Below are positions 181-13,382 of a stretch of 64,000 nucleotides of DNA, piece after piece. The DNA comes from Candidatus Shapirobacteria bacterium (lineage in GTDB: Bacteria > Patescibacteriota > Microgenomatia > UBA12405), in the NCBI GenBank assembly GCA_041660365.1, contig JBAZWK010000001.1, positions 1,524 through 65,523 on the forward strand. Reading direction: 5' to 3'. The translations under genes were made by a program, and so were the position numbers. Position 1 is the stretch's first letter. Every line of letters begins with the position of its first letter. The notes under the pieces were generated by a model. It was given only the letters and a program-made list of their open reading frames with translations. It made no database searches and had not been told where the DNA came from.

Positions 181-681
181 TTAACTTTGGTTGATCTGTT
201 CAATTGGAAAGATAAATTCATTTAATAGCTTGGTGTATTTTGATTGTAGTTCGGCTGGAATTTGAGGATGAATAAATGGTGAAATGATTCCCTCTTTTTT
301 GACAATATCGCTAGCTTTATCAAAGAAGAAACCCTCAGGAGTTGCGAGAAAAAGATATGACGGTCTCCATGACTCATACATTCTCTTGGCATCAGTAAGA
401 ATTGTACTAGTACTTGGCCTCATTAAATACTTCACTTCAATAAGAAATACATCGTGTGTTTCATTGTTGATGACGGCAAAATCTGGTGCTCGTCGAATAA
501 TTTCCATTGTTTCCTGGGCTTTAATATCATCATGGCGATGAGCTAGTTCTGGAATAATTTGTTCATATCCAAAAGACAAAATAGTGAAACATCCAGCATC
601 ACGGAGCATTTGTTCAAATAGTGTTTCAGCAATTCGACCTTTAACTAAATTCTTTGAGAAATTGATTGGATCATAGTTCAT
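181..681 (-). CDS. Hypothetical protein with a PD-(D/E)xK (Hjc/Mrr-cat-like) nuclease-type core
   Basis: The order 'KGRIAETLFEQ...DFAVIN...DVFLIEVKY' gives the E...D...E-x-K arrangement of restriction-endonuclease-fold nucleases. 166 aa. Confidence 0.45.
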   Translation of the reverse strand: MNYDPINFSKNLVKGRIAETLFEQMLRDAGCFTILSFGYEQIIPELAHRHDDIKAQETMEIIRRAPDFAVINNETHDVFLIEVKYLMRPSTSTILTDAKRMYESWRPSYLFLATPEGFFFDKASDIVKKEGIISPFIHPQIPAELQSKYTKLLNEFIFPIEQINQS

Positions 682-867: not shown

Positions 868-1266
868 TTATTTTTGTAAGGCTAAAATACTGTCTAATTT
901 TATCTTCCTGTTAGGTGACTCACCGTATTTATTAGTCTTTTCGTTGCCACTTAAATAAAATAATAAAAATAAAACATATAGCCCATATATTGGAATGTAT
1001 ACCGCTAAACCAAACCAACCATTTTTATCGTGGTCGTGTAGTCTTCTAATTGTCAAAGATAAATAATACACTAACAAGACTACGACTAAGGGTATGCTTA
1101 TAAAATTATAAAAAGGTGAAGTACTGTAATTAGGTATAAAACCTATCGGCACACAAATAAGCATAGGTAGCAAAATACCAACCCAAAAATTACCGACACT
1201 TAATCTCCCCTTAAATAAGTTTGATAGATATTCCATAGTATTATTTACCCTCCTTTGATTTATCAT
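868..1266 (-). CDS. DUF805-family inner-membrane protein
   Basis: Several TM segments plus the conserved 'RRLHDHDKNGWFGL...NKYGE' DUF805 (YhaH-like) signature. Confidence 0.6.
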   Translation of the reverse strand: MINQRRVNNTMEYLSNLFKGRLSVGNFWVGILLPMLICVPIGFIPNYSTSPFYNFISIPLVVVLLVYYLSLTIRRLHDHDKNGWFGLAVYIPIYGLYVLFLLFYLSGNEKTNKYGESPNRKIKLDSILALQK

Positions 1267-1582
1267 TTAACTGGCGATAGGTTAAAACTGATACTAAAAA
1301 GCCAATAAAAGCACTTACATAAGCCATCTTTAAGATAACAGTGTCGCCAAAACCAAACATAACACTAATTATCTGTAAGACAAAATAAGACAAAAACGAC
1401 GCTATAATCCCGACTACCCATGCAATAATAAAGGGCTTGGTTTTATAGTTGGTCAATTTTGTATATATCAACACGGGGATAAAGGGTATTACTACCGTCA
1501 TTAAAAAACCACTCACGCCGATAGCTGTTAATAAGAAAAGGGCGACAAGGCCACTACCTAACGCTATTACTATATTTTTCAT
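1241..1582 (-). CDS. Small integral membrane protein, hypothetical
   Basis: 113 aa with about four hydrophobic helices. Overlaps the downstream gene by 26 nt. Confidence 0.4.
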   Translation of the reverse strand: MKNIVIALGSGLVALFLLTAIGVSGFLMTVVIPFIPVLIYTKLTNYKTKPFIIAWVVGIIASFLSYFVLQIISVMFGFGDTVILKMAYVSAFIGFLVSVLTYRQLNDKSKEGK

Positions 1583-1637
1583 AATTATATTTTTGTTTTA
1601 CCCATTAAACGATTAAAGATATACCAAATAATTCCAC

Positions 1638-1868
1638 CTAACAAAAAGATGACGACAAACTCCATAAACACAAAAAAACGCTTTCCGTTCCTATATATTT
1701 AACTGCGTAACCTCCCGCAAGTATTCCTAAAACAACCCATCTAGGGACTAGTTTTAGTTCATGTTTACTACTACTGGACACTTTTATTGTAATAAAATCT
1801 CTAAGCCATCGACCAAATGAAATATGGCCTTGTTTGGTATTTAATAACATTTTGTCTGTTCTATTCAT
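1638..1868 (-). CDS. Small hypothetical (membrane?) protein. Possibly a degraded ORF
   Basis: 76-aa ORF with a hydrophobic stretch 'VVLGILAGGYAV'. The untranslated gap to the neighbouring gene hints at decay. Confidence 0.25.
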   Translation of the reverse strand: MNRTDKMLLNTKQGHISFGRWLRDFITIKVSSSSKHELKLVPRWVVLGILAGGYAVKYIGTESVFLCLWSLSSSFC

Positions 1869-2520
1869 GTTTATTATTGTCTAATATATTTGTAATTATT
1901 AAATGGACATGCTTATCAAGGAAATCCTTGGGCATACTTATCTTTAGTTGACCAGTTATATTGGTATCATTAATTATCCCACTTACCTTTTTATTGTCTA
2001 TTAAAAAATTTTCCTGGTTAGGATTTGATGCAAAAATTTGTGTTGTTCCGACTAAAAACTTAGCTGCGTTCTTTTTATTCAACTTTTCTCTTGCTCTAAG
2101 AATCGCAGTAATATGAAGTTTGTCTTTTTCGGCCTTTAGATATTCCCCGTATTTTTGATAAAGTTCTTCCATATACTCCTCTGGAGGAAAAAGATGTTTT
2201 GTAGTGAATATAAAAATATCAAGTAATCCCATTGCTAAGAATATTTTATCTTCAGGCGACTTATTGGATCCTTTAATTCCGTTAAGAACATCAATCAATC
2301 CCATAGTCAAAACTTCCTTAGTAATAAATTTATCCAGTTCAAACTTTTTTGGAAACATTTCTTCAACAATACTGCCGTGTTTTGGCCTTTTAGCATACCC
2401 ATAACACTGCCATAAACTATTATCTAATAGTGGATTCATTGCCGTTCCGGCAAGATAATTAATAAGGTCATTTATATCCGTAGTTTTTGCCTTATCCGTG
2501 TTGTTAATTTGTGTAGTCAT
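1861..2520 (-). CDS. Hypothetical protein
   Basis: 219-aa ORF with no recognisable motif. Sits in the accessory region. Confidence 0.4.
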   Translation of the reverse strand: MTTQINNTDKAKTTDINDLINYLAGTAMNPLLDNSLWQCYGYAKRPKHGSIVEEMFPKKFELDKFITKEVLTMGLIDVLNGIKGSNKSPEDKIFLAMGLLDIFIFTTKHLFPPEEYMEELYQKYGEYLKAEKDKLHITAILRAREKLNKKNAAKFLVGTTQIFASNPNQENFLIDNKKVSGIINDTNITGQLKISMPKDFLDKHVHLIITNILDNNKHE

Positions 2521-2640
2521 CTTTTGTTTATCCTCGACTTTATTATTAGTTTTATTAAGTTGATTATATTACTTTTTCAAGCGAACCATTGACCCGGACT
2601 AAAACCTATTTGTATGAATAACTAATACTAATTAATTTAA

Positions 2641-3081
2641 CTAGTACAGAGAAAAATACAAAATTGGAATCGCTAACCAAGGTAAAAATGCAGATATGTA
2701 ATATAAGGCATTTTTTTTCATTAATTTTGGATCGGTTTTTTTATCATGCTTTATATCCCACAATAAATCTGGCAGTCTTCCAAACATAATTATTATTGTC
2801 GCTATTACAACTCCTATATTCCAAATGCGAAATAGTAAATAAAAAAAGGTGATGTTTAATATTAAAGCAATAATAGTAGTTCGTTTTTGTTGATGTATAT
2901 ATTCTTTATCCTTACCTACAATTGTAATAAATTCTGGTGCTTCTTTTTTTATTCTATTAAGTTCTTGTTGTGGAAATAAACCTCTTATAAAAAGACCTAA
3001 AAGATTTACACTTAAAATCATTAAAATAATGCAAAATGCCACAGATATCAAAATATGTGAAATCATAGTTAATAATAACAC
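2641..3081 (-). CDS. Integral membrane protein, hypothetical
   Basis: 146 aa with four predicted TM helices. Confidence 0.4.
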   Translation of the reverse strand: MLLLTMISHILISVAFCIILMILSVNLLGLFIRGLFPQQELNRIKKEAPEFITIVGKDKEYIHQQKRTTIIALILNITFFYLLFRIWNIGVVIATIIIMFGRLPDLLWDIKHDKKTDPKLMKKNALYYISAFLPWLAIPILYFSLY

Positions 3082-3290
3082 TCAGTATTTATTACCTAAT
3101 GGAGTTAACTTGGAACTAGATTAAAAATAAATGGAAACAACCAAAAGATTTATTCTTTAGTATCAATCAAACGAAACTATAAGATTAAAAATCAATTCTA
3201 GTATCCAACAACAATACCCATAAATACCAAGTTTTTAATAGTCTCTTAAGAGGTATAATGTTTTATATTTATCACTTAATAAAATAGAAT

Positions 3291-5096
3291 ATGAAATTAA
3301 ATAATTTTAGAATTCAAAATTATAAATCCATAAAAGATAGTGGAGTTTGTTACTTGTCGGAAAATGACAATATTTTAGTTCTTGCAGGACAAAATGAATC
3401 GGGGAAAAGTTCAATTTTACAAGCTTTAGCAGATTTTTATTCAGGGGAATTGCACCCATATGCAATGAGAAAATTTGATTCCACTACATTTTTTCCTTCA
3501 ATGGATTGTACTTTTAATGTGGATGGAGGCAATTTAGATATTAATCAAATACTAAAAGACTTAGCTTTACCAGAAGAAATGGGTGAATATTTTAGAAAGT
3601 TAGATAAATTTATTATTATTAGAGTTTTTACTTCTCAAACAGAATCTATCTTAAGAGTTGACGATGATACTCATAATGAATTTATTACAGCTATCAAAAA
3701 GATTAATGAAAAAACCAGAAAAAATAAACCCCCATCTAAAACAGAAGGACAGGAGAAGGAAGATGGAGGTGAAGGAATCAATGAAATTAAATTAATAGAT
3801 GAAGAATTATCAAAAGAAGATTTGGGTGATATTTTATTTTCTTATACTACAAAAATAATTTTTTTTGATGACTTGAGAAATTTATTACCAGAAAAAATTT
3901 ATATATCAAGCTTAATCAACAATGAAACTGATGTCGATGGTTATATTGCTGTCAAAAATATTGAAACTATTCTTGGTGAAGATTTTACTAAATTTTCAGA
4001 GCTTGAAGATGGAGTTAGGGAATCACGTCGTGAAACATGTAATAGAACTATTACAGCAGATTTTAATGAAAAGTGGAAACAACAAATATTTAGTGATAGC
4101 AAAACAAAAATATCAATTCAATTTAATCAGGGTGGTCAAAGCGACAAAGGTCCATATCTAAACTTTTTTATTGTAACTAAAGAAAATGAATATCTGATTC
4201 CACAACAAAGAAGCCAAGGCTTTAGATGGTTTCTTTCGTTTTATTTAAGACTAAAAGCAGAAAGTAAAGCCAATGATAAATTAATAATTTTATTCGATGA
4301 ACCAGGACTATTTTTACATTCTAAAGCTCAAAATGATATGAAAAACCTTTTTGAAGAATTAGCCCAAAAAGACCAAATAATATATTCTACTCATTCTCCA
4401 TATCTGATTGATTCAGATCATCTAAACAGGGTTAGGTTAATATTAAATGATAAAAATGATGGTACTAAAATTGAAAAAATAACAGCTAAAATATCTGATA
4501 ATCAACAAGATGCCCTCAAACCTATTGCTGATGCTGTAGGACTGGATATTGCTCATTGTTTTTCACTCATATCTAAAAAAAATGTCATAGTAGAAGGAAT
4601 TTCTGATTTTTATTATTTTGTTGCAATGAAAAAAATATTAGAGATAAACGATGACTTTTCATTTATTCCGTCAGTTGGTGCAACTCAGGTTCATCTTTTG
4701 ATGGAACTATGTATTGGTTGGGGTTTGTCTTGGTTAATTATATTTGATGATGATTCACAATCAAATAATGCCTACCGAAACATTAAGAAAAACTTTTTTG
4801 ATAACAAAGAAAATGATGTAAAAAAGAAAATTTATTTAACAAAAGATATTGATGGTATCGAAAACATGTTTGAGTCAGAAGACTTAAATTTAGTTGATTC
4901 ATCAGCAAATTTTAACAATTCAGAAAAAAATTCAGTACATGTTAAAACTGTTGGTGGTAAAGAATTATATTCTCGGTTATTTTTTGAAAAAGTAAATAGC
5001 GGTGAAATCAAAAAAACACAAATTTCAAGAGAAGCCATTGCTAATTTTCAAAAATCATTCGATTTTATACAAACAAATCTAATTTTGTTAAATTAA
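3291..5096 (+). CDS. OLD-family ATP-dependent endonuclease (N-terminal ABC-type ATPase fused to a C-terminal Toprim). Class-1 OLD / GajA-like
   Basis: N-terminal 'LVLAGQNESGKSSILQAL' is a Walker A. 'LIILFDEPGLFLH' is a Walker B with D-loop and 'STHSP' is the H-loop. The C-terminal Toprim shows 'VIVEGISDFYY' and 'WLIIFDDD' (DxD). A TATAAT -10 box sits at about 3255. Confidence 0.7.
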   Translation: MKLNNFRIQNYKSIKDSGVCYLSENDNILVLAGQNESGKSSILQALADFYSGELHPYAMRKFDSTTFFPSMDCTFNVDGGNLDINQILKDLALPEEMGEYFRKLDKFIIIRVFTSQTESILRVDDDTHNEFITAIKKINEKTRKNKPPSKTEGQEKEDGGEGINEIKLIDEELSKEDLGDILFSYTTKIIFFDDLRNLLPEKIYISSLINNETDVDGYIAVKNIETILGEDFTKFSELEDGVRESRRETCNRTITADFNEKWKQQIFSDSKTKISIQFNQGGQSDKGPYLNFFIVTKENEYLIPQQRSQGFRWFLSFYLRLKAESKANDKLIILFDEPGLFLHSKAQNDMKNLFEELAQKDQIIYSTHSPYLIDSDHLNRVRLILNDKNDGTKIEKITAKISDNQQDALKPIADAVGLDIAHCFSLISKKNVIVEGISDFYYFVAMKKILEINDDFSFIPSVGATQVHLLMELCIGWGLSWLIIFDDDSQSNNAYRNIKKNFFDNKENDVKKKIYLTKDIDGIENMFESEDLNLVDSSANFNNSEKNSVHVKTVGGKELYSRLFFEKVNSGEIKKTQISREAIANFQKSFDFIQTNLILLN

Positions 5097-5311
5097 AACT
5101 TAAACAGTTCCCAAAGTTCAATATTCAATGCTTCAGCTATTCTTGCAATTGTTTTAATTGTCGGTTTTCTTTCTGCCCTCTCAATATACCCAATGAATGC
5201 ACGATTCAAACCAGTATCTAACGCAATATCTTCCTGAGTAAGGTTTTTTTCACCCCTTAGTTTTACAATCTTTTTACCTAAATTTTTATAAATTAGTTCC
5301 GTGTCAATCAC
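5093..5311 (-). CDS. XRE-family helix-turn-helix transcriptional regulator
   Basis: 72 aa. 'LTQEDIALDTGLNRAFIGYIERAERKPTIKTIARIAEAL' is the classic Cro/C1 HTH. Its stop overlaps the OLD gene stop tail-to-tail over 5093-5096. Confidence 0.8.
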   Translation of the reverse strand: MIDTELIYKNLGKKIVKLRGEKNLTQEDIALDTGLNRAFIGYIERAERKPTIKTIARIAEALNIELWELFKF

Positions 5312-5642
5312 AATAGAATTTTCCCTAAATACTGACCCTTGGTCGACTTACTGGTGGTATACTTTGTTCAACATGAAAGATAAACTACTTTCGATTGATA
5401 ACTCTCTTTTGGAATTGGCACGTTTTATTGTTATGTTATTTTTAATAGCTTTAGTTTTTGGAATAGGGTTCATTTTAATGGTTTTTAGTGCATTTAGTGC
5501 AGCTCCAATAATATGGATTTTTATGGGTGGCTTTACTAATACCTGGTTTTTATTTCCTTTTAGTATCCTTAGTATTTATCTATTTAGAGTTTGGATTAAA
5601 ATAAGCCCAAAAATAATAGAAATAATAAACCCAAAAAAATAA
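5301..5642 (+). CDS. Small membrane protein, hypothetical. The start may be the internal Met at 5373
   Basis: Hydrophobic helices 'FIVMLFLIALVFGIGFILMVF' and 'IIWIFMGGF'. Divergent from the XRE gene. Confidence 0.4.
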   Translation: MSITIEFSLNTDPWSTYWWYTLFNMKDKLLSIDNSLLELARFIVMLFLIALVFGIGFILMVFSAFSAAPIIWIFMGGFTNTWFLFPFSILSIYLFRVWIKISPKIIEIINPKK

Positions 5643-5643
5643 A

Positions 5644-6615
5644 ATGAAAAAATTCTTAAAAGTTCTATTTGTTTTAATAATGATTGTGGTTATTTCAATT
5701 GGAGCTTATTTAACTTATAAAGGAATTTCATATGCCAAAACTAAAACCAGTGATTTTATTGTCGATGAGGCAAACATTTTAGATGACAGAACTAAACAAT
5801 ATATCATTAGTATGATTGATGCTGGAGGTTACAAGGGAAAAATTGGTGTTGTGATTACTAAATCAACCAAACCACTAACTATAAAGGAATATGCCACTAA
5901 AATTGATCTTAATTGGGTAATGGAGAAAAACTTTTCAAGAAACGGAGTGATTATTTTTTACGCTGTTGATGACCCTAATTTTTTGGTTCAACATAGTTTA
6001 ACTTCAAATAGTTTAATAAATTTAGATCAGGCACAAAAAATAATTGAAATATCGACATCTTTTATAAGGAACAGTCAAAACAGTGAGGCAATAGTTCAAG
6101 GAGTAAAAGCAACAATAGACTTAGCTTCTGGAAAAGAATTATCTCCAATTCCAACATCAGTTCCCGAGACAACTCCTACTTCTACCTCGACTCCTACAAA
6201 AACAGGTAAACAACCACTTCCTGTATTGAAAGGAAGTAGTATTTTTAGTTTTGTAAATCAATATCGAGCAAGCAAAGGTTTACCTTTTCTCTCAGTATCA
6301 GATGAATTATGTAAACTCGCCGAAAAAAGAGCCGATCTAATGATGGCGAACAATATGGAGGCATTCAAAAAAAGTGGTACTGGCAATCATTATCAATTTG
6401 ATGATGTTCAATATTCAGGTAATGGAGTCGGTGAAAATATAGCAGCTAACTTAGGAAGAGATAAAGATGTAGTTGAGAAATGGAAAACATCACCACCCCA
6501 CAATGAATTAATGCTTTGGACAGAAAAAGAAGGAACTCAAATAACTAAAGGGTGTGTCGCGACTAGAGTGTCAGAGGTCGGATCAATTGTTGTATTATTA
6601 GTTGGAGACAAATAA
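5644..6615 (+). CDS. Secreted or membrane-anchored protein with an N-terminal TPM-like domain and a C-terminal CAP (SCP/PR-1/YkwD-like) domain
   Basis: N-terminal TM/signal. 'DEANILDDRTKQYII...GKIGVVITKS' is TPM-like. A Thr/Pro/Ser linker follows. The C-terminal 'GENIAANLG...VEKWKTSPPHNELML' is the CAP-domain signature. Confidence 0.55.
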   Translation: MKKFLKVLFVLIMIVVISIGAYLTYKGISYAKTKTSDFIVDEANILDDRTKQYIISMIDAGGYKGKIGVVITKSTKPLTIKEYATKIDLNWVMEKNFSRNGVIIFYAVDDPNFLVQHSLTSNSLINLDQAQKIIEISTSFIRNSQNSEAIVQGVKATIDLASGKELSPIPTSVPETTPTSTSTPTKTGKQPLPVLKGSSIFSFVNQYRASKGLPFLSVSDELCKLAEKRADLMMANNMEAFKKSGTGNHYQFDDVQYSGNGVGENIAANLGRDKDVVEKWKTSPPHNELMLWTEKEGTQITKGCVATRVSEVGSIVVLLVGDK

Positions 6616-6627
6616 ATTCAAATAATA

Positions 6628-7086
6628 ATGGGGCAAGATAATGAATATTTAATTAATACGGAAAATATCAAGGTCAGAACCGATTTGGTGGCAAAAATTG
6701 TCATAATTGGAGTTGTTTTATGGATAGTAATGAAATTATTAATTGGCTATTTTGGTAATAATGAGATTGGAAGTTTTTTTGAAAAAAGTAACTACACTAC
6801 TCAATACTGGGTATATCTGCAACCAGAAAATACTCAAACAAAAAATTACAGAATAAAAGCAGATATTCATCATTATGTAGAACCAGGAGATGAAGATTAT
6901 AGTGGTGGAGATAGATATGTTTTGGAAAAAGTTTATTGGGAAAATGGAGGACACTCAGATTTTGATGACTGTGAAATCAGTGATTCTATTTTAAGTAAGA
7001 ATGACAAAAACAATTACACTAACTGTTTTGATGATAATCACAATTACTACAAAATAAGATTGGATGAAAAAGTAAATGAAAAATAA
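6628..7086 (+). CDS. Hypothetical protein with an N-terminal TM anchor
   Basis: 152 aa. TM 'IVIIGVVLWIVMKLLIGYF' followed by a Cys/Asp/Tyr-rich soluble part. Confidence 0.4.
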   Translation: MGQDNEYLINTENIKVRTDLVAKIVIIGVVLWIVMKLLIGYFGNNEIGSFFEKSNYTTQYWVYLQPENTQTKNYRIKADIHHYVEPGDEDYSGGDRYVLEKVYWENGGHSDFDDCEISDSILSKNDKNNYTNCFDDNHNYYKIRLDEKVNEK

Positions 7087-8077
7087 AACAAAAAAAATTT
7101 CCAACAAAATAAAACTAGCAATTCCTCTTGTATTAATTCTTTCAATCTTAATAGTATTCTTTGGCAATAATAGTTCTAATAATTCAAATAGAGGCGTACC
7201 AGAGGCGTTATCAGAGGACCCAGGACGTGCAAACTCGTGTGAAACTGATATTGTTAAGGCCTTCGATAAAAATGGAACATTAAAAGTTTCAAATCAGGTT
7301 CAAAACACAAAATTAAGTTGGAAAGATAAAAAATATGAGACTTTTGTTTTAGACTGCCCAAACGAAGAAGAGTCTTTTAATAAAGTTTTTATTTTGAAAA
7401 ACAGTGAAGGCAAAATAATCTTTTCAATGACAGACGAAAGATTTGATAAAGCCGAAATCAAAGATATTAATAAAGATGACATTGCTGAGTTAGTAGTAGC
7501 TCATGGGAATAGTGGAAATTGTTTCAACTGCCAAGGTCAATCAGTTTTCCAAATAATTAATGACACAGTAAAGGATTTATTATCAAATTTACCAAAATCT
7601 GAAGGTTCAGAACATGCCAATGTTTGGCTATCAGATATTAATAATGATGGGATTGAAGACATAATGCTTAGAGATGATAGTTGGGAAATGCACGAAGGAT
7701 TTTTTCATTCAAATTCACCGAGTCATACTCAAATACTTACTTGGAATAATGGCGAATACCAACAAGGTGGTGAAATGTTTTCAAAATATTATCTCAATCA
7801 AATTAGTGAGAGAAACAAGGAAGTTACAAAACTCTTAAAAAGCAAAAATACTGGATTGAATGACATTGTCAGCTTGGCAATAGAAAATTATTGGGACTCT
7901 CAAGAGATAGGTAGGAACGATGAAGGCTACGCCAATTTTATTCTTCAAACAAATTTAGAAACTCTTCCAAAAACAATCGCAATTAATGACAGTGATAAAA
8001 TCTGGCTTTTGGGAATTAGAAATGAAATCGAGAAAGAATACAAAGAAGCCAGACCAACAATAACACCATTGTATTAA
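7076..8077 (+). CDS. Hypothetical secreted protein
   Basis: 333 aa with an N-terminal signal/TM 'IPLVLILSILIVFF'. No known motif. Overlaps the upstream gene by 11 nt, suggesting an operon. Confidence 0.4.
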   Translation: MKNKTKKISNKIKLAIPLVLILSILIVFFGNNSSNNSNRGVPEALSEDPGRANSCETDIVKAFDKNGTLKVSNQVQNTKLSWKDKKYETFVLDCPNEEESFNKVFILKNSEGKIIFSMTDERFDKAEIKDINKDDIAELVVAHGNSGNCFNCQGQSVFQIINDTVKDLLSNLPKSEGSEHANVWLSDINNDGIEDIMLRDDSWEMHEGFFHSNSPSHTQILTWNNGEYQQGGEMFSKYYLNQISERNKEVTKLLKSKNTGLNDIVSLAIENYWDSQEIGRNDEGYANFILQTNLETLPKTIAINDSDKIWLLGIRNEIEKEYKEARPTITPLY

Positions 8078-8379
8078 GACCCCTCGGTAAAATTTGAAAA
8101 ACGGACTCGGCTAACGATTCTTTAACAATATTTATGAGCAAGCACCCACTTGTAATGGCGTCATTAAAAACCCATCTTTCCATCAAATGTTTACTTTTCG
8201 ATATGATTAAATTAACTACTCAATATCCTGATTATCATCAGCAATAGAGCCATAATCATAATGTAATTTAGAGTTTTATAGTTTATTTTTGTGTTTTTTT
8301 TCATTTTTTTTACGGTTTAAGAGATATTTGAACCCCTCGATATTTTTTTATTTTTTTTAATGGCTTCATGATTTTTTCT

Positions 8380-8474
8380 GGGAGTCACTCCCCCTTTTTT
8401 GAGCTACAGATACGGCTTTGAGTAACCATTGGCTGTAGCTCTCGGAAGCACTTCCTTTTAGTTACACCATCACT
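8380..8474 (+). promoter_or_regulatory. Cluster of three stem-loops in the 430-bp spacer downstream of the primase gene. On the plus strand, GGGAG-tca-CTCCC and GGAAG-ca-CTTCC are each followed by a T-run (terminator-like). Between them is the 9-bp-stem hairpin GAGCTACAG...CTGTAGCTC
   Basis: The palindromes are read directly from the sequence. The T-runs fall on the plus strand. Confidence 0.35.
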
Positions 8475-8510
8475 CCTGAGTTAATGACACAGTGAAAAAG
8501 TCCAGGCATA

Positions 8511-10850
8511 TTATTGAAATATGGCACTTAACTCTGAATCAGACATATCATCAACTGTCTTGTCTAAAACCAAGGGAGGGTTAGTAATAATTTCTGTGCC
8601 TGAGGGAGGGTTTGTGGTTGTTTTTATAAAACTCTCACTAGAGAGACTAGTACTAGATAGTTTTATAGAAATAGGGTCAAACCCTCCAACCCTCCCCAGC
8701 TCTTCAAGAAGTCCTTCGTTGTTTTTAAGCTTAATCCCCTGGTAATGGATCAATCCCCCATTACGTTTTACTTTGTTATGTTTCTCTGTCATCATTTTTC
8801 CAAAGAGCGTGTTGCTTAACATGTCGCGATCCTTTAGTTTTGCATCTTCTGCCCAAGACACATAGTTTTTGTACAGGACTGTTGATTGTGTTAACACACC
8901 TTCAGTTTCTTCACACTCACTGACGATAAAATCGGACAATACGTCGTTCTCAGATTGATATGTTTTGGTTGCTATCTCAACTACTTCAGGTGTTGGGCTT
9001 AGGCCTTCTTTCTGCCATAGTAAGCACCCTTCAATTAACCAGTTTAGAATCCCAGATGATTCTGTTTCTAGTTTAGATACAAGATTTTCATCTTGTTCTT
9101 CTGGTTTGAATATCCGATTAAAACTGATTAGTTTAATTCTTCGCCAAAATCCGAAACTGTTGTCGTCAACACCAGGTAGATGATTGATGAACATCCAAGG
9201 TTTTGCTGTCGGTTTGAAAGTAAAGTTCTCTTGATAAAGATATCGAGCAGTGACATTATCACCGCCAGTCCAAGCCTTTAGTCTTTGTTCGTTAATTCGT
9301 GCAGTGGTCAATGTCTCACTGGATACTAAGAATCGTTTGAACTCTGTCGCTGCTTCATCGTTACTATTACTCGCCTGAAGATTTTTGCGAAAAAGACTAG
9401 CTGGCGCGTCATACGAATAGTCTCCCAATATATTAGAGATGGTCTTGAACATGACGCTTTTTCCGTTTGCACCATTACCATAACAAAAGAATGCGGCCTG
9501 ACTTTTGACACTTCCAGTTATTGAGTAACCCAATGCTTTTTGAACGTATCGAATTAGCTCTTTGTCACCTTGAAATATCTCGTCAAGAAACTGTTCCCAC
9601 CTTGGACAAGGTGCACCTGAATCATAGGTAACACTTGCTTGCATTGTAATTCTGTCTTCTGGTTGTCCATCTCTTAATTTACCAGTGGTTAGGTCAATAA
9701 TCCCATTTTTACACGATAACAACATTTCATTAGAATCCCAGTTTTTACCATCATCAGTTATTGGATGTTGATCTCTTGCAAGGGCAATGGCTGCTTCTAT
9801 CTTTTGCCTACTTTCGCTTTGCATAGCCCATTTTGCTACAGCTTCCTTCTTTTTTGGATTCTCTATTGTTGAGGCTTCTACAAATCGTTTTCTGGCAGCA
9901 TCAATAGCGTATCGGCTTATAGATCCATTATTGTCAGGCTTCCATCTGTGCTGATCCCACACTAACCAACGATTACGTCGATGATCGAACCTTAACTTAT
10001 TTCCAAATAGTTCTGCTATCTTTTCGGCATTACCAGTATCAGTCAGATGTAGTTTCTTCTTTTTCTTTTTTGTTTTATCTGATGGTTCCTGATTAGTAGA
10101 TTCTAGTTTACTGTTTTGAACAAACTCCCAAGCTCTTGAGACATTATAATTAAACTCAGTTTCATCTAAAGGTGGAGTAAAAGTTTGATTCATTCCAAAG
10201 AGGATTCTTTTACCTTCATCATAATTAGTTGAATAGAATTGATGACATGCCCATTGATACAACTTTCCACTTCTCTCACCTTCAGGAATATCTATAAAGT
10301 CTTTGATTACTAATGGGGTATAGTCAGTCGGACTCTTTTTATCTCCTCTAATTAGATTTTCTATGTCCAATGGAAGAGATTCCAACTTATTTATATTTTC
10401 AGTTGGATCACTTAACCACCTTCTATTATTGAAAGGTGGTAATAAAGCATATGAACGATCCCCTTTAATATCAATATGGAGTTCTGGGTTTGAATGACTT
10501 TGAATTCGTCTGTTGTACTTAAAGTAATAGTGTTTGCCACCACTTTGAGAAACAGCTTCTAGTGGAGAATGAAATCCCCATTCAGGTAATCCTTTCTTTA
10601 TACGGTCGTCGTCTACGATCATGACACCAGAAATATCACCAGTGACTACGGCCAGATAATACCCTTTATTTATCCATCTTTCGACGTCTTCAAGAGAGGC
10701 TTTGTTTGTTTGATATTTCTTCCATTTGTATACAGGTTTTTTGTCACCTTTTGAGCTTATTGGAATTATGGACCAGCCCAATTCTATATATTTTTTAGCG
10801 TATTCTAACGCGTTAAATTCTTGGGGTATTTTGTCCATCTTCATCATCAA
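8511..10850 (-). CDS. Primase-helicase of the phage/plasmid P4-alpha/D5 type (N-terminal Prim-Pol domain plus C-terminal SF3 helicase)
   Basis: N-terminal 'GWSIIPISSKGDKKPVYKWKKYQ...YLAVVTGDISGVMIVDDD' is a bifunctional primase/polymerase domain. The C-terminal 'FFCYGNGANGKS' is a Walker A of the D5_N/P4-primase helicase type. Confidence 0.75.
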   Translation of the reverse strand: MMMKMDKIPQEFNALEYAKKYIELGWSIIPISSKGDKKPVYKWKKYQTNKASLEDVERWINKGYYLAVVTGDISGVMIVDDDRIKKGLPEWGFHSPLEAVSQSGGKHYYFKYNRRIQSHSNPELHIDIKGDRSYALLPPFNNRRWLSDPTENINKLESLPLDIENLIRGDKKSPTDYTPLVIKDFIDIPEGERSGKLYQWACHQFYSTNYDEGKRILFGMNQTFTPPLDETEFNYNVSRAWEFVQNSKLESTNQEPSDKTKKKKKKLHLTDTGNAEKIAELFGNKLRFDHRRNRWLVWDQHRWKPDNNGSISRYAIDAARKRFVEASTIENPKKKEAVAKWAMQSESRQKIEAAIALARDQHPITDDGKNWDSNEMLLSCKNGIIDLTTGKLRDGQPEDRITMQASVTYDSGAPCPRWEQFLDEIFQGDKELIRYVQKALGYSITGSVKSQAAFFCYGNGANGKSVMFKTISNILGDYSYDAPASLFRKNLQASNSNDEAATEFKRFLVSSETLTTARINEQRLKAWTGGDNVTARYLYQENFTFKPTAKPWMFINHLPGVDDNSFGFWRRIKLISFNRIFKPEEQDENLVSKLETESSGILNWLIEGCLLWQKEGLSPTPEVVEIATKTYQSENDVLSDFIVSECEETEGVLTQSTVLYKNYVSWAEDAKLKDRDMLSNTLFGKMMTEKHNKVKRNGGLIHYQGIKLKNNEGLLEELGRVGGFDPISIKLSSTSLSSESFIKTTTNPPSGTEIITNPPLVLDKTVDDMSDSELSAIFQ

Positions 10851-11049
10851 TCACTAACTTTCCAGTCATATTATCTATAACTAGAACACCTTTGCCTTTA
10901 CAAACGGGACAAATGGTCTTCCCAAAAGAAACGGTGGTATATCCGTTACAGTTAGGGCATTTTTTTACTGTGAAATTTTCATCAGTCATACAATCAATGT
11001 AATTTATATTCCCAGCTCTATTCGTGGAGTTTCCTGGCTCTCGTATCAA
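10813..11049 (-). CDS. Small zinc-ribbon protein, co-oriented with and overlapping the primase gene
   Basis: 78 aa with 'CPNCNG...CPVCKGKG' (two CxxC knuckles, DnaJ-like CxxCxG spacing). Confidence 0.45.
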   Translation of the reverse strand: MIREPGNSTNRAGNINYIDCMTDENFTVKKCPNCNGYTTVSFGKTICPVCKGKGVLVIDNMTGKLVIDDEDGQNTPRI

Positions 11050-11467: not shown

Positions 11468-12976
11468 TTGGTAGGAAGTACGAGTGCTTCTTATCAGTGG
11501 ACAATGACGCCATTTGTAAAAAATTATGACTTATTAATTAGTGCTTTGGAAGCAAATGGTTTAGTAAAGAATCAAGATTTTTATGTATGGAATTATGACT
11601 GGCGAAAACCGTTGTCACAAATAGTAAATGATTTTAATGATTTTATAAATGGATTGAATTTACAAAATGGCGAGAAAGTAGATCTTGTGGGTCATAGTTT
11701 GGGTGGTTTATTGGCTCGGGTGTGGACTCAGGATCATCCGGAAATGGTGGGAGAAGTGATTACTTTGGGTAGTCCACATTTTGGGGCGCTTAAGGCATAT
11801 GAGGCTTGGAATGGAGCAAAAATTAGTGATAATTTTGATGTGGCTTCAGTGGCTCTGAACGTTTTGTTACAACTGGAAAAAAAGAACAATAATACTAGTG
11901 TAGAAACATTGAGAAACTACGCTCCGATTGTTTTTGATTTGTCCCCTACTTTTACTTTTTTGAAGAGAAATGGGGTTAATGTTTTAACGAAAAGCAGTCA
12001 GTATTTAAATGATAAAAATAATTCGGTAAATTTAATTAAAGATAAATTGATGACGGTTGATGGTCAGGGAGTATCGACCAAAGAATGGATAAAATTAGGG
12101 GACAGATCGGTGATTGATAAAATTTTAGGAGTATGGGAAGAAGGCCGTCCGACATCGTACTTATATGGAATTGGTGATGGCACCGTATTGAAAAAGAGCG
12201 CCATAATAAGCGGGACCGAGACAATGGAATTTAGTTCTAATCATGGTGATTTGGTTAACAAATCAACAAATTTTGTTTTGGAAAAATTGGGTTTGGGAAC
12301 AACGGTGAAAATAACAGCAGATAATATTCCCTTAAAACAGGCAGTATTTTATTTAGGTTCTCCGGCGAATATGATAGTTAATTGCGGCGGAACAGAAAGA
12401 AGTGAAAATAATGGTTGGGTGATAATGGAAAATCAAGATAGTAAAAATTGTATCGTAAAATTAATGGGTAAAGATGGCGGTGGAACTTATCATTTAGTGA
12501 TTGGTGATAATGACAACTGGAAATATGTGGAAGGGGAAATTGTTGATAGTCAGCAAATTAGTTTAACGGTAAATAGTGAAGATATTTATTGGCAGATGTT
12601 AAAACGTGATTTTCAAAGTTTGGGAATAAACACTTCGACGATTGATAATAAAAACATTTTAACGACGGCTGATATTTATATTAATTTTAGAGCGATCAAT
12701 AAAAATTATAAATTGAGTGAAGAAATAATTGATAATTTGAAAACTATTTTGGCAAAGAAAAGTGTCAGTAGTACAGATTTAAATAGTACCTATAACAAGG
12801 CATTAAGTTCTAAGTCTTTAGTTGATACTAATTTAAGATTAATGGCCAGAAATGGGGTTAATCCCCAGTACTCGGCGGCGATTACTTATGATCAGGCTAA
12901 TAAATTAATGGCTGAAGGAAAAAACTATGCGGCAAATTATTTGGCGTCGAAACTATTTGGAATTGTCTGGAAATAA
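11468..12976 (+). CDS. LCAT/PGAP1-like alpha/beta-hydrolase (lipase/acyltransferase family). Start codon uncertain (TTG at 11468 or ATG at 11504)
   Basis: 'YDWRKP' is the LCAT-family motif. 'VDLVGHSLGGLLAR' is the GxSxG nucleophile elbow. 'GSPHFGA' follows. Confidence 0.6.
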   Translation: MVGSTSASYQWTMTPFVKNYDLLISALEANGLVKNQDFYVWNYDWRKPLSQIVNDFNDFINGLNLQNGEKVDLVGHSLGGLLARVWTQDHPEMVGEVITLGSPHFGALKAYEAWNGAKISDNFDVASVALNVLLQLEKKNNNTSVETLRNYAPIVFDLSPTFTFLKRNGVNVLTKSSQYLNDKNNSVNLIKDKLMTVDGQGVSTKEWIKLGDRSVIDKILGVWEEGRPTSYLYGIGDGTVLKKSAIISGTETMEFSSNHGDLVNKSTNFVLEKLGLGTTVKITADNIPLKQAVFYLGSPANMIVNCGGTERSENNGWVIMENQDSKNCIVKLMGKDGGGTYHLVIGDNDNWKYVEGEIVDSQQISLTVNSEDIYWQMLKRDFQSLGINTSTIDNKNILTTADIYINFRAINKNYKLSEEIIDNLKTILAKKSVSSTDLNSTYNKALSSKSLVDTNLRLMARNGVNPQYSAAITYDQANKLMAEGKNYAANYLASKLFGIVWK

Positions 12977-12992: not shown

Positions 12993-13262
12993 TTACTCGG
13001 CATCAATAGGAACGTATCCTGGTAATAAATCGTATCTAAATCCATTTGTATTTAAGGAGCCAGTTTTTATTTCACTAAATCCGACTTTTTCTGGGTTTCT
13101 AATAGCTGATTCTGGACAGCCTTCATCAGTTAAAACTTTTGCTAGATCTTGTCTTTTTGAACAATAGTTTTCACCATTTTCGTTGGCTTTAACAAATACA
13201 CATTCATGTTTTTGACATATTTTAAGTATGTCTTGTTCGGACAATTCTGTTTGATTTGCCAT
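12993..13262 (-). CDS. Small hypothetical Cys-containing protein. The start is trimmed to the internal Met because the longer ORF runs into the tRNA gene
   Basis: ORF 12993..13331 overlaps tRNA-Val. The Met at 13262 gives an 89-aa product 'MANQTELSEQDILKICQKHECVF...'. Confidence 0.35.
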   Translation of the reverse strand: MANQTELSEQDILKICQKHECVFVKANENGENYCSKRQDLAKVLTDEGCPESAIRNPEKVGFSEIKTGSLNTNGFRYDLLPGYVPIDAE

Positions 13263-13295
13263 ATTAAGTTGATAATAACATTTTTTTAAAAAATG

Positions 13296-13369
13296 TGGTT
13301 GTTGCGGGACTTGAACCTGCGACCTCATCAATGTGAATGATGCGCTCTAACCAACTGAGCTAAACAACC
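13296..13369 (-). tRNA. tRNA-Val (anticodon CAC)
   Basis: Reverse complement reads GGTTGTT-T-AGCTCAGTTGGTTAGAGC-G-CATCA-TTCACAT-TGATG-AGGTC-GCAGGTTCAAGTCCCGC-AACAACC-A. It has a 7-bp acceptor stem, a D-arm, an anticodon loop 'TT CAC AT', a T-arm GGTTCAAGTCC and discriminator A. No CCA is encoded. One A-C mismatch in the T-stem. Confidence 0.8.
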
Positions 13370-13382
13370 AGATTGTTAATGA

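What the first reader, a model, noticed from the sequence alone, without database searches (positions are those of the whole stretch)
3291..5311. Stand-alone OLD-family ATPase-Toprim nuclease converging tail-to-tail on an XRE repressor
The 601-aa protein has a complete ABC-type ATPase (Walker A/B, H-loop) fused to a Toprim domain (EG.SD and DxD motifs). This is the architecture of P2 Old / class-1 OLD and of Gabija GajA. No UvrD-like GajB partner follows. Instead a 72-aa XRE HTH gene converges on it with stop codons overlapping over 5093-5096, and the XRE gene is divergent from a four-gene operon of membrane and secreted proteins at 5301-8077. Either this is a single-gene OLD defence module, or the XRE gene and the downstream secreted proteins are functionally coupled to it. 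Neither arrangement is a described multi-gene system.
Basis: partly seen in the sequence, partly recalled or inferred. Interest (0 to 1): 0.6.

Follow-up and report, generated by a model that had tools for sequence, protein, structure and literature searches.

The report
Stand-alone OLD nuclease as mobile-element cargo
The gene is a real, intact single-gene OLD-type (ATPase plus Toprim) nuclease, most likely an anti-phage defence gene. It sits in a swappable cargo slot of a mobile element in a Candidatus Shapirobacteria genome, and the neighbouring XRE repressor and envelope-protein genes belong to the element's backbone rather than to the nuclease.

Summary
ORF 3291-5096(+) encodes a 601-aa protein with every ABC-ATPase motif and the Toprim E/DxD residues. 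It matches AAA_15, OLD-like_TOPRIM, PADLOC "Old" and Thermus scotoductus Class 1 OLD (6p74). The AlphaFold model matches GajA, Ts OLD and retron-Eco8 OLD. The 72-aa XRE gene converges on it with stop codons sharing TTAA (5093-5096).

The "coupled multi-gene system" reading does not hold. XRE, the 333-aa protein, TPM-CAP, p152 and the PrimPol/D5 primase recur in related Patescibacteria elements. In those elements the position behind the XRE stop codon holds other cargo: a Gabija-like GajA+GajB pair, a type VI retron-like RT+HTH, M78 peptidase/DUF4411 plus HpaII R-M, or unrelated genes. DNA homology breaks exactly at the XRE stop codon. Candidate XRE operators lie only in the XRE/rightward-operon promoter region, not upstream of OLD. 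Among 57 non-redundant ~600-aa homologues, no neighbour family recurs in more than 9 of 103 flanking genes, and no UvrD family reached two members among them.

Verdict: this is a Class 1-type (single-gene) OLD carried as defence cargo, a new member of a known kind. Its target (DNA or tRNA) and its trigger are unknown. Interest is modest. The defence hotspot in a CPR mobile element is the most useful by-product.

The parts
3254..3259 (+). Probable -10 box (TATAAT, within GAGGTATAAT) of the OLD gene's own promoter, 32 nt upstream of the ATG
   Evidence: Read from the sequence. The block GAGGTATAAT...TATATTTATCA is conserved with the 75%-identical locus L002 while the rest of the upstream region has diverged. 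The consensus scan did not list it, since its -35 is weak. Function is inferred.
3291..5096 (+). OLD-family nuclease gene (601 aa): N-terminal ABC ATPase (aa 1-~400) with a helical insertion, and C-terminal Toprim (aa ~428-540) followed by C-terminal helices
3387..3410 (+). Walker A / P-loop (G33-Q-N-E-S-G-K39-S40)
   Evidence: Invariant in A1. K39 aligns to Ts OLD K34 (PMC7049728).
4281..4301 (+). Walker B (L-I-I-L-F-D336-E337), followed by D-loop H343 and H-loop H368 (4392-4394)
   Evidence: Invariant D336, E337, H343 and H368. They align to Ts OLD E276, H283 and H310 (PMC7049728).
4593..4607 (+). Toprim E435-G-I-S-D439 (metal A Glu and metal B Asp)
   Evidence: Invariant. They align to Ts OLD E377 and D381 (PMC7049728).
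4746..4754 (+). Toprim D486-D487-D488 (DxD, metal A)
   Evidence: D486 is invariant. D486 and D488 align to Ts OLD D431 and D433.
5093..5311 (-). XRE-family HTH repressor gene (72 aa), a backbone gene of the mobile element. Its stop codon marks the cargo junction.
   Evidence: HTH_3 at 1.7e-12. RstR-like phage repressor and C-protein-like hits. 80-88% identical copies sit next to different cargo. DNA homology breaks at its stop codon.
5333..5360 (.). Candidate XRE operators: TGACC-CTT-GGTCG (5333-5345) and TTACT-GGT-GGTAT (5348-5360), in the divergent promoter region
   Evidence: Nearly invariant in window, L002, L115 and L116. The XRE-upstream regions of L003 and L004 carry a different palindrome twice: two exact TAACC-N3-GGTTA copies in L003, and one exact plus one copy with one mismatch in L004. 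No copy lies upstream of OLD. Binding is inferred.
5373..5642 (+). Small membrane protein (89 aa from ATG 5373), first gene of the rightward operon
   Evidence: No family hit.
5644..6615 (+). Membrane-anchored TPM + CAP domain protein (323 aa), element backbone
   Evidence: Pfam TPM_phosphatase and CAP. 68% identical in L113, which has no OLD.
6628..7086 (+). 152-aa membrane-anchored protein, element backbone
   Evidence: 93% identical in L111, beside a Gabija-like pair.
7076..8077 (+). 333-aa anchored protein with FG-GAP-like DxNxDG repeats, the most widely shared backbone gene
   Evidence: Homologues in L111 (89%), L113 (68%), L116 (44%), L004 (42%) and L003 (39%). FG-GAP_3 hit in the L003 homologue.
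8511..10850 (-). Prim-Pol / D5_N / P4-type primase-helicase (779 aa), the element's replication gene
   Evidence: Pfam, PHROG DNA primase at 1.5e-125, TIGR01613. 54% identical to the L116 primase next to a serine recombinase.
10813..11049 (-). Zn-ribbon protein (78 aa) upstream of the primase
   Evidence: 84% identical to the L116 gene at 3509-3682 in the same position.
13295..13369 (-). tRNA-Val(CAC). Housekeeping chromosome begins beyond it, so it is a possible integration landmark.
   Evidence: No att-like repeat was found in the window.

Best explanation
The gene at 3291-5096 encodes an intact, stand-alone (Class 1-type) OLD-family nuclease. It is carried as anti-phage or anti-mobile-element cargo in a variable slot of a mobile element in a Candidatus Shapirobacteria (Patescibacteria/CPR) chromosome. 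The element is integrated and possibly degenerate.

Shown: the protein has all ATP-binding and hydrolysis residues of an ABC ATPase and the two-metal Toprim acidic residues of OLD nucleases. It has its own conserved promoter-like block. It has no conserved partner gene across its family. In related elements the same slot, directly behind the stop codon of the element's XRE repressor gene, holds other recognised defence systems.

Inferred: by analogy with Ts OLD, P2 Old and Vc OLD, the protein dimerises through the helical insertion in the ATPase domain. The ATPase acts as the sensor or switch. The Toprim domain cleaves nucleic acid by two-metal catalysis once an infection cue is sensed. The substrate could be invading DNA (nicking or 5'-3' degradation) or a tRNA, as recently reported for P2 Old.

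The XRE protein is the element's own repressor. It probably binds the conserved palindromes at 5333-5360 to control itself and the divergent envelope-protein operon. It is not a dedicated OLD partner.
For: Family and motifs:
- AAA_15, AAA_21 and OLD-like_TOPRIM.
- PADLOC best model 'Old'.
- Homologues named 'ATP-dependent endonuclease of OLD family'.
- Invariant K39, D336/E337, H343, H368, E435, D439 and D486. Together with D488, which is not invariant, they map onto the mutationally validated Ts OLD residues K34, E276, H283, H310, E377, D381, D431 and D433 (PMC7049728).
- In a family-profile search, Ts OLD is the only solved OLD protein found by sequence.
- AF2 model with pLDDT 84. Its best PDB matches are GajA, Ts OLD and Eco8 OLD.

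No partner:
- Among 103 flanking genes of 57 non-redundant ~600-aa homologues, no family exceeds 9 members and no UvrD family is among those with two or more members.
- The convergent XRE occurs only in the clade with 66% identity or more.

Cargo slot:
- XRE, p333, TPM-CAP, p152 and primase homologues occur with a GajA+GajB-like pair in L111 (PADLOC 1e-71 and 4e-92), RT_VI+HTH_VI in L115, M78+DUF4411+HpaII R-M in L113, or other genes in L116.
- DNA homology among window, L002, L115 and L116 ends at the XRE stop codon.

Mobile context:
- P4-type primase.
- Serine recombinases in sister elements.
- GC of 26-29% against 33-40% around it.

Operators are found only in the XRE promoter region. Single-gene OLD defence is experimentally established elsewhere (PMC12392090, PMC13261556).
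Against: - No experiment exists on this protein or on any close relative. Closest identity to a characterised OLD is low: Foldseek reports 13-16%, and HMMER aligns only residues 322-490 to 6p74.
- The metal-B Ser/Asp-x-Glu and the K/R seven residues later, as in Ts and P2, are not evident.
- The OLD-XRE tail-to-tail pair persists across four independent loci while OLD diverges to 66% and XRE to about 37-40%. This could mean more than shared ancestry.
- No integrase and no att repeat lie in the window, so 'mobile element' rests on gene content and on comparison with sister loci.
- CPR bacteria may lack the RecBCD trigger used by P2 Old, so the trigger is unknown.
Confidence: 0.75

Rival explanations
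1. OLD and XRE form a two-gene regulated defence module. The XRE protein represses or licenses OLD expression, as C-proteins do for R-M systems or CapH for CBASS. Alternatively, convergent overlapping transcription couples their expression.
For: The convergent XRE, overlapping or within 5 nt of the OLD 3' end, is kept in window/L001, L002, L003 and L004-6, while upstream flanks differ and XRE diverges to about 37-40% identity. The XRE's best PADLOC hits are R-M control proteins (1.3e-13) and capH. No terminator-like site lies between the two genes.
Against: XRE copies 80-86% identical to the window's sit beside a retron-like RT (L115) or unrelated genes (L116) instead of OLD. DNA homology stops exactly at the XRE stop codon. 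The conserved palindromes occur only upstream of XRE, not in any OLD promoter. OLD homologues at 55% identity or less lack an adjacent XRE.
Confidence: 0.12
2. OLD, XRE and the membrane/secreted proteins at 5373-8077 form one multi-gene system, for example an envelope sensor feeding an intracellular nuclease.
For: A p333-family gene lies two or more genes to the right of XRE in three of the four OLD-bearing locus types.
Against: p333, TPM-CAP and p152 homologues (68-93% identical) occur without this OLD in L111, L113 and L116. The genes between XRE and p333 differ between OLD-bearing loci: TPM-CAP+p152, p251/p265, or an S26-peptidase-like protein. None of these proteins appears next to any of about 80 more distant OLD homologues.
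Confidence: 0.03
3. The OLD protein serves the element or the cell rather than immunity. It might process DNA during element replication or maintenance, act as an addiction (post-segregational killing) function, or have a cell-cycle role like the archaeal OLD-family ATPase Cran1.
For: It lies in an element with its own primase-helicase. An OLD-family protein with a cell-cycle function has been reported (cited in PMC13261556). The YbjD Toprim domain is dispensable for its anti-phage phenotype (PMC13261556), so OLD biology is not uniform.
Against: The gene is dispensable for the element family, since sister elements lack it. In those elements it is replaced by recognised defence systems. Homologues sit inside type I R-M operons, next to type II R-M systems and on predicted viral contigs. 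This is the signature of defence genes.
Confidence: 0.1

Closest known systems
Class 1 OLD nucleases (Thermus scotoductus OLD, PDB 6P74; P2 Old; Vibrio cholerae Vc OLD; E. coli YbjD/OldB)
   Same: [quoted passage not shown] It is a single gene with no obligate partner. Walker A Lys, Walker B acid, D-loop His, H-loop His and the metal-A E/DxD residues align residue-for-residue with Ts OLD (PMC7049728). Like P2 old, it is carried on a mobile element beside variable defence cargo.
   Different: It is about 70 aa longer than Ts OLD (601 against 528). It has a canonical Walker B Asp and a conserved S-x-G signature-like motif (R307-S308-Q-G310), whereas Class 1 signatures are described as degenerate. 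The Ts/P2 pattern of metal-B S/D-x-E followed by K/R at +7 is not seen. Instead the family has invariant E524, D531 and a Lys (K557) 33 residues later in a C-terminal helix. Sequence similarity is detectable only from Walker B through the Toprim. The host is a CPR bacterium.
Gabija GajA (Class 2 OLD)
   Same: Same two-domain architecture. GajA chains are the top Foldseek hits (8u7i_A at 1.1e-15). The length is similar. A catalytic Lys possibly supplied from a C-terminal helical segment would resemble Bp OLD K562.
   Different: No UvrD/GajB gene is adjacent here or among the neighbours of the homologues examined. GajA profiles score well below the Old profile (57.7 against 93 bits). GajA is not found by the family profile in PDB sequences at E<=1e-3. 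A Gabija-like pair (PADLOC GajA- and GajB-profile hits) in the sister element L111 has an OLD only 28% identical over 173 aa.
Defence hotspots of P2-like phages and P4-like satellites (Rousset et al. 2022, PMC9122126)
   Same: A fixed position in a mobile-element backbone holds alternative defence systems in different element copies: OLD, Gabija-like, retron-like, or R-M. P2 old itself sits in such a hotspot.
   Different: The backbone is different and uncharacterised: XRE, envelope proteins, a Prim-Pol/D5 or DnaG-like primase, and a serine recombinase. The host phylum is Patescibacteria. The junction lies exactly at the stop codon of the XRE gene.
PARIS (AriA/AriB, Class 4 OLD) and Rlo/AbiL-type ATPase+Toprim pairs in type I R-M loci
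   Same: An ABC ATPase of the AAA_15/AAA_21 type combined with a Toprim nuclease. Distant homologues of the window protein are embedded between hsdS and hsdR.
   Different: Here the two domains are fused. The Toprim matches OLD-like_TOPRIM, not the AriB-type DUF4435. No R-M genes flank the window gene.

Membership tests
OLD family nucleases (general) | N-terminal ABC-type ATPase with Walker A Lys, Walker B acidic residue, D-loop and H-loop His | tested here: met
   AAA_15 at 3.6e-24 over aa 1-373. K39, D336/E337, H343 and H368 are invariant in 34 homologues and align to Ts OLD K34, E276, H283 and H310 (PMC7049728).
OLD family nucleases (general) | C-terminal Toprim domain with metal-A ligands (Glu + DxD) | tested here: met
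   OLD-like_TOPRIM at 24.0 bits against a cut-off of 23.2. E435, D486 and D488 align to Ts E377, D431 and D433. E435, G436, D439 and D486 are invariant. Whole-chain Foldseek hits to GajA, Ts OLD and Eco8 OLD.
OLD family nucleases (general) | Metal-B ligands (D/E of the EGxxD motif plus S/T/D-x-E) and a transition-state K/R | tested here: inconclusive
   D439 (= Ts D381) is present. The candidates E524, D531 and K557 are invariant, but their spacing differs from Ts (S478-x-E480, R487) and P2 (D541-x-E543, K550). HMMER aligns E524 with Ts E470, not E480.
OLD family nucleases (general) | Dimerisation domain inserted in the ATPase fold; oligomeric assembly | tested here: inconclusive
   The AF2 monomer shows a mostly helical insertion at about aa 125-260 between the ATPase halves. 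No multimer prediction was made.
OLD family nucleases (general) | ATP hydrolysis and metal-dependent nuclease activity | not testable with these tools
   Needs purified protein.
Class 1 OLD (single-gene) | Isolated gene: no conserved UvrD helicase, reverse transcriptase/ncRNA or separate Toprim partner | tested here: met
   The window neighbours are a 146-aa membrane protein on the opposite strand and XRE. In the census of 103 flanking genes of 57 homologues, the top family reaches 9 (ResIII), HTH_3 reaches 6, and no UvrD family reaches 2 or more members.
Class 1 OLD (single-gene) | Lacks the Class 2 Toprim insert / C-terminal helical domain; about 50 aa shorter than Class 2 | tested here: inconclusive
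   The protein is 601 aa with three C-terminal helices (aa 547-598) carrying invariant K557. This is closer to Class 2 in length. No residue-level structural superposition was possible.
Class 2 OLD / Gabija | [quoted passage not shown] | tested here: not met
   The downstream gene is a convergent 72-aa HTH. No helicase lies within 1-13 kb of the window.
Class 3 OLD / retron I-B | Adjacent reverse transcriptase and msr/msd ncRNA | tested here: not met
   No RVT domain was found in the flanking ORFs that were scanned. Rfam finds only tRNA-Val in the window.
Class 4 OLD / PARIS | Separate AriA ATPase and AriB (DUF4435 Toprim) genes, or their fusion | tested here: not met
   It is a single fused protein whose Toprim matches PF20469, not DUF4435. 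The PADLOC 'AriA' hits have the same lengths as the generic Pfam AAA_15 and AAA_21 models (373/374 and 304), so they are probably those models. The AriAB fusion model scores lower than Old.
C-protein-controlled nuclease module (R-M-like regulation) | HTH controller co-transcribed with, or upstream of, the nuclease, with its operator in the nuclease promoter | tested here: not met
   XRE is convergent. The palindromes lie only in XRE's own upstream region.
Anti-phage defence system | Protects cells against phage or plasmid challenge | not testable with these tools
   Only context supports it: the same slot holds Gabija-like, retron-like and R-M systems in sister elements, and homologues lie in R-M operons.

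The most novel reading that the evidence does not exclude
The stop codon of the XRE repressor gene marks a dedicated cargo-exchange hotspot in a previously undescribed family of Patescibacteria (Microgenomates) integrative elements. The tail-to-tail, terminator-less overlap seen for both OLD and the retron-like RT makes repressor and defence-gene transcripts mutually antisense, so defence expression is tied to the element's regulatory state. In addition, this OLD clade may be a structural intermediate between Class 1 and Class 2: stand-alone, but with the catalytic Lys supplied from a C-terminal helix.
Probability: 0.15. Interest if true: 0.5.

Novelty: new member of a known kind. Interest (0 to 1): 0.3.

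Why it matters
This adds a well-supported stand-alone OLD nuclease from the Candidate Phyla Radiation. The group has tiny genomes, an episymbiotic lifestyle and few characterised defences. The protein belongs to a large and diverse clade (more than 1,500 hits) that is only distantly related to the few Class 1 OLDs studied.

The more useful by-product is a recombination hotspot in a CPR mobile-element family that swaps OLD, Gabija-like, retron-like and R-M cargo behind one repressor gene. Such hotspots are productive places to look for new defence genes. Nothing here changes how OLD nucleases are understood to work.

Tried and rejected
1. I searched for an att-type direct repeat of tRNA-Val (13250-13380) elsewhere in the window. 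Nothing of 14 nt or more was found.

2. I ran tblastn with recombinases, excisionase, DnaG-like primase, GajB, RT, M78 and DUF4411 from sister elements against the whole window. There were no hits, so there is no recombinase remnant.

3. I looked for the XRE operator palindrome in OLD promoters, using the window/L002 TGACC-N3-GGTCA type and the L003/L004 TAACC-N3-GGTTA type. None was found. The window-wide count is also not above chance, so only the conserved copy at 5333 is meaningful.

4. The 10-nt palindrome CTCTTAAGAG at 3243-3252, just before the OLD -10 box, is not conserved in L002. I did not treat it as an operator.

5. The single-protein scan of metagenome contigs found only two distant loci. 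Close relatives had to be reached through the look-up of encoding contigs.

7. Only the P-loop region (aa 1-48) matches Rad50. SMC_N and AAA_23 score below their cut-offs. I rejected it.

8. I considered a fused PARIS system. I rejected it because there is no DUF4435.

9. NCBIfam has no specific model for this family. Only sub-threshold PtuA and Rad50 hits appear.
Full report
**1. Observation**

The window has an ATG-initiated ORF at 3291-5096(+) of 601 aa and a GTG-initiated ORF at 5093-5311(-) of 72 aa. Bases 5093-5096 read TTAA, so the two TAA stop codons overlap on opposite strands. The N-terminus MKLNNFRIQNYKSI matches the family consensus, so the start is right. GC is 26-29% across 2500-6000, against 33-40% in the flanks.

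**2. What the protein is**

Sequence-profile evidence:
- Pfam gives AAA_15 (3.6e-24, aa 1-373, full model), AAA_21 and OLD-like_TOPRIM (aa 428-488, just above the gathering score).
- SMC_N, AAA_23 and Rad50-type hits are sub-threshold or limited to the P-loop.
- The best PADLOC model is Old (4.8e-27). GajA models score lower. The 'AriA' models have the same lengths as the generic Pfam AAA_15 and AAA_21 models, so they are probably those models.
- The best solved relative by sequence is 6P74, the Class 1 OLD of Thermus scotoductus, at 2e-13. With a 34-sequence family profile this improves to 8e-16. In that profile search Ts OLD is the only OLD-family structure recovered, alongside ATPase-only matches to AriA, PtuA and Rad50.

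Structural evidence: an AlphaFold2 model (mean pLDDT 84) matches GajA, Ts OLD and the retron-Eco8 OLD over the whole chain at 1e-15 to 1e-13. It also matches giant-virus 'ATP-dependent endonucleases' in BFVD.

Catalytic residues: I combined the HMMER alignment to 6P74 with the mutational map of Schiltz et al. 2020 (PMC7049728).

| Window residue | Ts OLD residue | Role |
|---|---|---|
| K39 | K34 | Walker A |
| D336 | E276 | Walker B |
| H343 | H283 | D-loop |
| H368 | H310 | H-loop |
| E435 | E377 | metal A |
| D486 | D431 | metal A |
| D488 | D433 | metal A |
| D439 | D381 | metal B |

All of these except D488 are invariant in the 34 homologues.

What I could not settle is the rest of the metal-B site and the transition-state K/R. 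The family has invariant E524, D531 and K557. Their spacing does not fit the Ts or P2 pattern. K557 lies in a C-terminal helix, which recalls Class 2. Without model coordinates this stays open.

**3. The family and its neighbours**

The protein belongs to a large family. More than 1,500 hits passed among the 8,000 candidates scored. They occur in Patescibacteria, Bacteroidota, Planctomycetota, Nanoarchaeota and others, and many are named 'ATP-dependent endonuclease of OLD family'. There are 15 loci on IMG/VR contigs, and distant relatives on plasmids and phages.

I examined the flanks of about 110 loci. The convergent XRE gene at +1 occurs only in the four locus types whose OLD is at least 66% identical: window/L001, L002, L003 and L004-6.

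At 55% identity or less the neighbours vary widely:
- a small terminase (L007, L106);
- HaeII R-M plus Vsr (L107);
- a two-component system plus serine recombinases (L109);
- type I R-M operons with OLD between hsdS and hsdR (L030, L031, L062 and others);
- Dam-like or C5 methyltransferases directly upstream (L017, L035);
- an HTH-M78 fusion (L024).

A Pfam census covered the 103 immediate neighbours of 57 non-redundant ~600-aa homologues. It gives ResIII in 9, HTH_3 in 6, Methylase_S in 5 and phage integrase in 3, with no UvrD family in 2 or more. This is the Class 1 pattern of no obligate partner. However, these genes often sit in defence or mobile contexts, contrary to the older statement that Class 1 genes avoid defence islands (PMC10568477).

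**4. What XRE and the 'secreted-protein operon' are**

Searching with p333 and with XRE identified the host as Candidatus Shapirobacteria. The evidence is a 100% XRE match on a 66-kb NCBI MAG contig and an 89% p333 match in GCA_028704635.1. The same searches returned four further loci.

All-against-all comparison shows a mosaic element family. The table gives, for each backbone gene, the sister loci that share it and the percent identity to the window copy.

| Backbone gene | Loci that share it |
|---|---|
| XRE | all eight loci |
| p333 | L111 (89%), L113 (68%), L116 (44%), L004 (42%), L003 (39%) |
| TPM-CAP | L113 (68%) |
| p152 | L111 (93%) |
| Prim-Pol/D5 primase and its Zn-ribbon neighbour | L116 (54% and 84%) |

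L116 and L004 share an excisionase-like HTH_17 and a large serine recombinase (91%). L113 and L003 share a DnaG-like primase and adjacent genes. Each also carries a resolvase-domain gene there, but those two did not match each other.

The position behind the XRE 3' end differs between loci:

| Locus | Cargo behind the XRE 3' end |
|---|---|
| window, L002, L003, L004 | this OLD |
| L111 | GajA-like OLD (PADLOC Old 1e-71) plus GajB (4e-92) |
| L115 | RT_VI (9e-29) plus HTH_VI, i.e. a type VI retron-like pair; the RT overlaps XRE tail-to-tail by 11 nt |
| L113 | Peptidase_M78 + DUF4411, followed by HpaII R-M |
| L116 | unrelated small genes |

A four-way DNA alignment shows near-identity through the promoter/operator region and the XRE coding sequence. 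Homology is then lost abruptly, exactly after the XRE stop codon. So XRE and the envelope-protein genes are backbone, and OLD is interchangeable cargo.

**5. Regulation**

The XRE upstream region carries conserved palindromes: TGACC-CTT-GGTCG at 5333-5345 and an adjacent TTACT-GGT-GGTAT. L003 and L004 have a different palindrome, TAACC-N3-GGTTA, present twice. No copy lies upstream of any OLD gene.

OLD has its own conserved GAGGTATAAT block 32 nt before the ATG. I infer that XRE autoregulates and controls the divergent rightward operon, and that OLD is expressed independently. No terminator-like structure separates the convergent genes. Antisense interference therefore cannot be excluded.

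**6. Mechanism**

I commit to the following: an ATP-regulated, two-metal Toprim nuclease acting alone as an anti-phage or anti-MGE effector.
- Shown: intact catalytic motifs, stand-alone status and location in a defence hotspot.
- Inferred from Ts OLD, P2 Old, Vc OLD and YbjD: dimerisation through the ATPase insertion; ATP binding or hydrolysis gating the nuclease; and cleavage of DNA (nicking or 5'-3' degradation) or of tRNA, as reported for P2 Old in work cited by PMC13261556.
- Unknown: the trigger. P2 Old senses RecBCD inhibition, but YbjD does not.

**7. Comparison and novelty**

The gene passes the tests for the OLD family and for Class 1 by context. It fails the defining context tests for Classes 2, 3 and 4. 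It is a new member of a known kind. Two features are mildly unusual. First, the ATPase motifs are canonical and there may be a Class 2-like C-terminal Lys. Second, it sits in a CPR mobile-element hotspot.

**8. Limits**

- No integrase or att site lies in the window, and the element's left end may lie before position 1.
- The neighbourhood gene calls for the GTDB loci are my own greedy ORF calls.
- The hotspot rests on eight locus types.

Noticed in passing
L017:1913-2986, L035:1296-2327, L031:6195-7325, L062:6790-8004, L030, L028, L022:9815-10957: OLD homologues at 32-43% identity are often the second gene of a tight operon (a 4-nt overlap to an 18-nt gap). The first gene is a DNA methyltransferase (Dam-like D12 in L017, C5 in L035) or a type I HsdS, and HsdR directly follows OLD in L031. 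This looks like OLD acting as an extra or alternative nuclease of R-M-like modules. It does not apply to the window gene.
   Followed up: partly
L044-L088 (about 31 Bacteroidales loci), e.g. L044:7007-7990 + 8001-10349: A longer (~776-aa) OLD-like subfamily at 29-35% identity is preceded, nearly always immediately, by a co-oriented SpoIIE/PP2C-type phosphatase gene of 263-327 aa (30 of 31 loci at -1). This is a conserved two-gene arrangement that I did not find described.
   Followed up: partly
L115:9209-10499: A type VI retron-like pair (PADLOC RT_VI 8.9e-29 and HTH_VI 2.1e-13) converges on and overlaps an XRE gene that is 86% identical to the window's. This is the same geometry as OLD in the window. 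I did not search for an ncRNA.
   Followed up: no
L111:2475-7748: A Gabija-like pair occupies the same slot of a Shapirobacteria element that shares p152 (93%) and p333 (89%) with the window. The OLD scores 1e-71 against PADLOC Old. The GajB scores 4e-92 and carries an N-terminal TM2-domain extension. The two genes are separated by about 1.1 kb with no called gene.
   Followed up: partly
window 181-681 (-): A 166-aa protein with no family hit has a PDFAV...EVKY motif that looks like a PD-(D/E)xK nuclease core. It is 85.5% identical to L113:1470-1955, which lies next to an HNH endonuclease gene at the far side of that element's cargo region. It may mark the left part of the element.
   Followed up: partly
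window 868-3081 (-): Four small genes sit between the PD-(D/E)xK-like gene and OLD: a DUF805 membrane protein, 113-aa and 146-aa membrane proteins, and a 219-aa protein without hits. They have no counterpart in sister elements except the close copy L001. They may be further cargo.
   Followed up: no
window 7076-8077 and homologues P0121-P0134: The 333-aa anchored protein with DxNxDG (FG-GAP/VCBS-like) repeats and a CxxC pair has only 14 detectable homologues. Every homologue whose source gives an organism name (one, P0121) or whose contig was examined looks like Patescibacteria. It is the most conserved backbone gene of the element family, and its role is unknown.
   Followed up: partly
window 13481-63700: The rest of the window is ordinary chromosome of a small-genome bacterium: G6PD, signal peptidase I, ParB, L27, FtsW, IleRS, FtsZ, FtsA, a PBP transpeptidase, Mur ligases, SAM synthetase, and UDP-sugar epimerase and dehydrogenase genes.
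   Followed up: partly
window 11468-12976 (+): A 502-aa LCAT/PGAP1-like alpha/beta-hydrolase (lipase-type) gene lies between the primase module and tRNA-Val. It is unclear whether it belongs to the element or to the chromosome.
   Followed up: no
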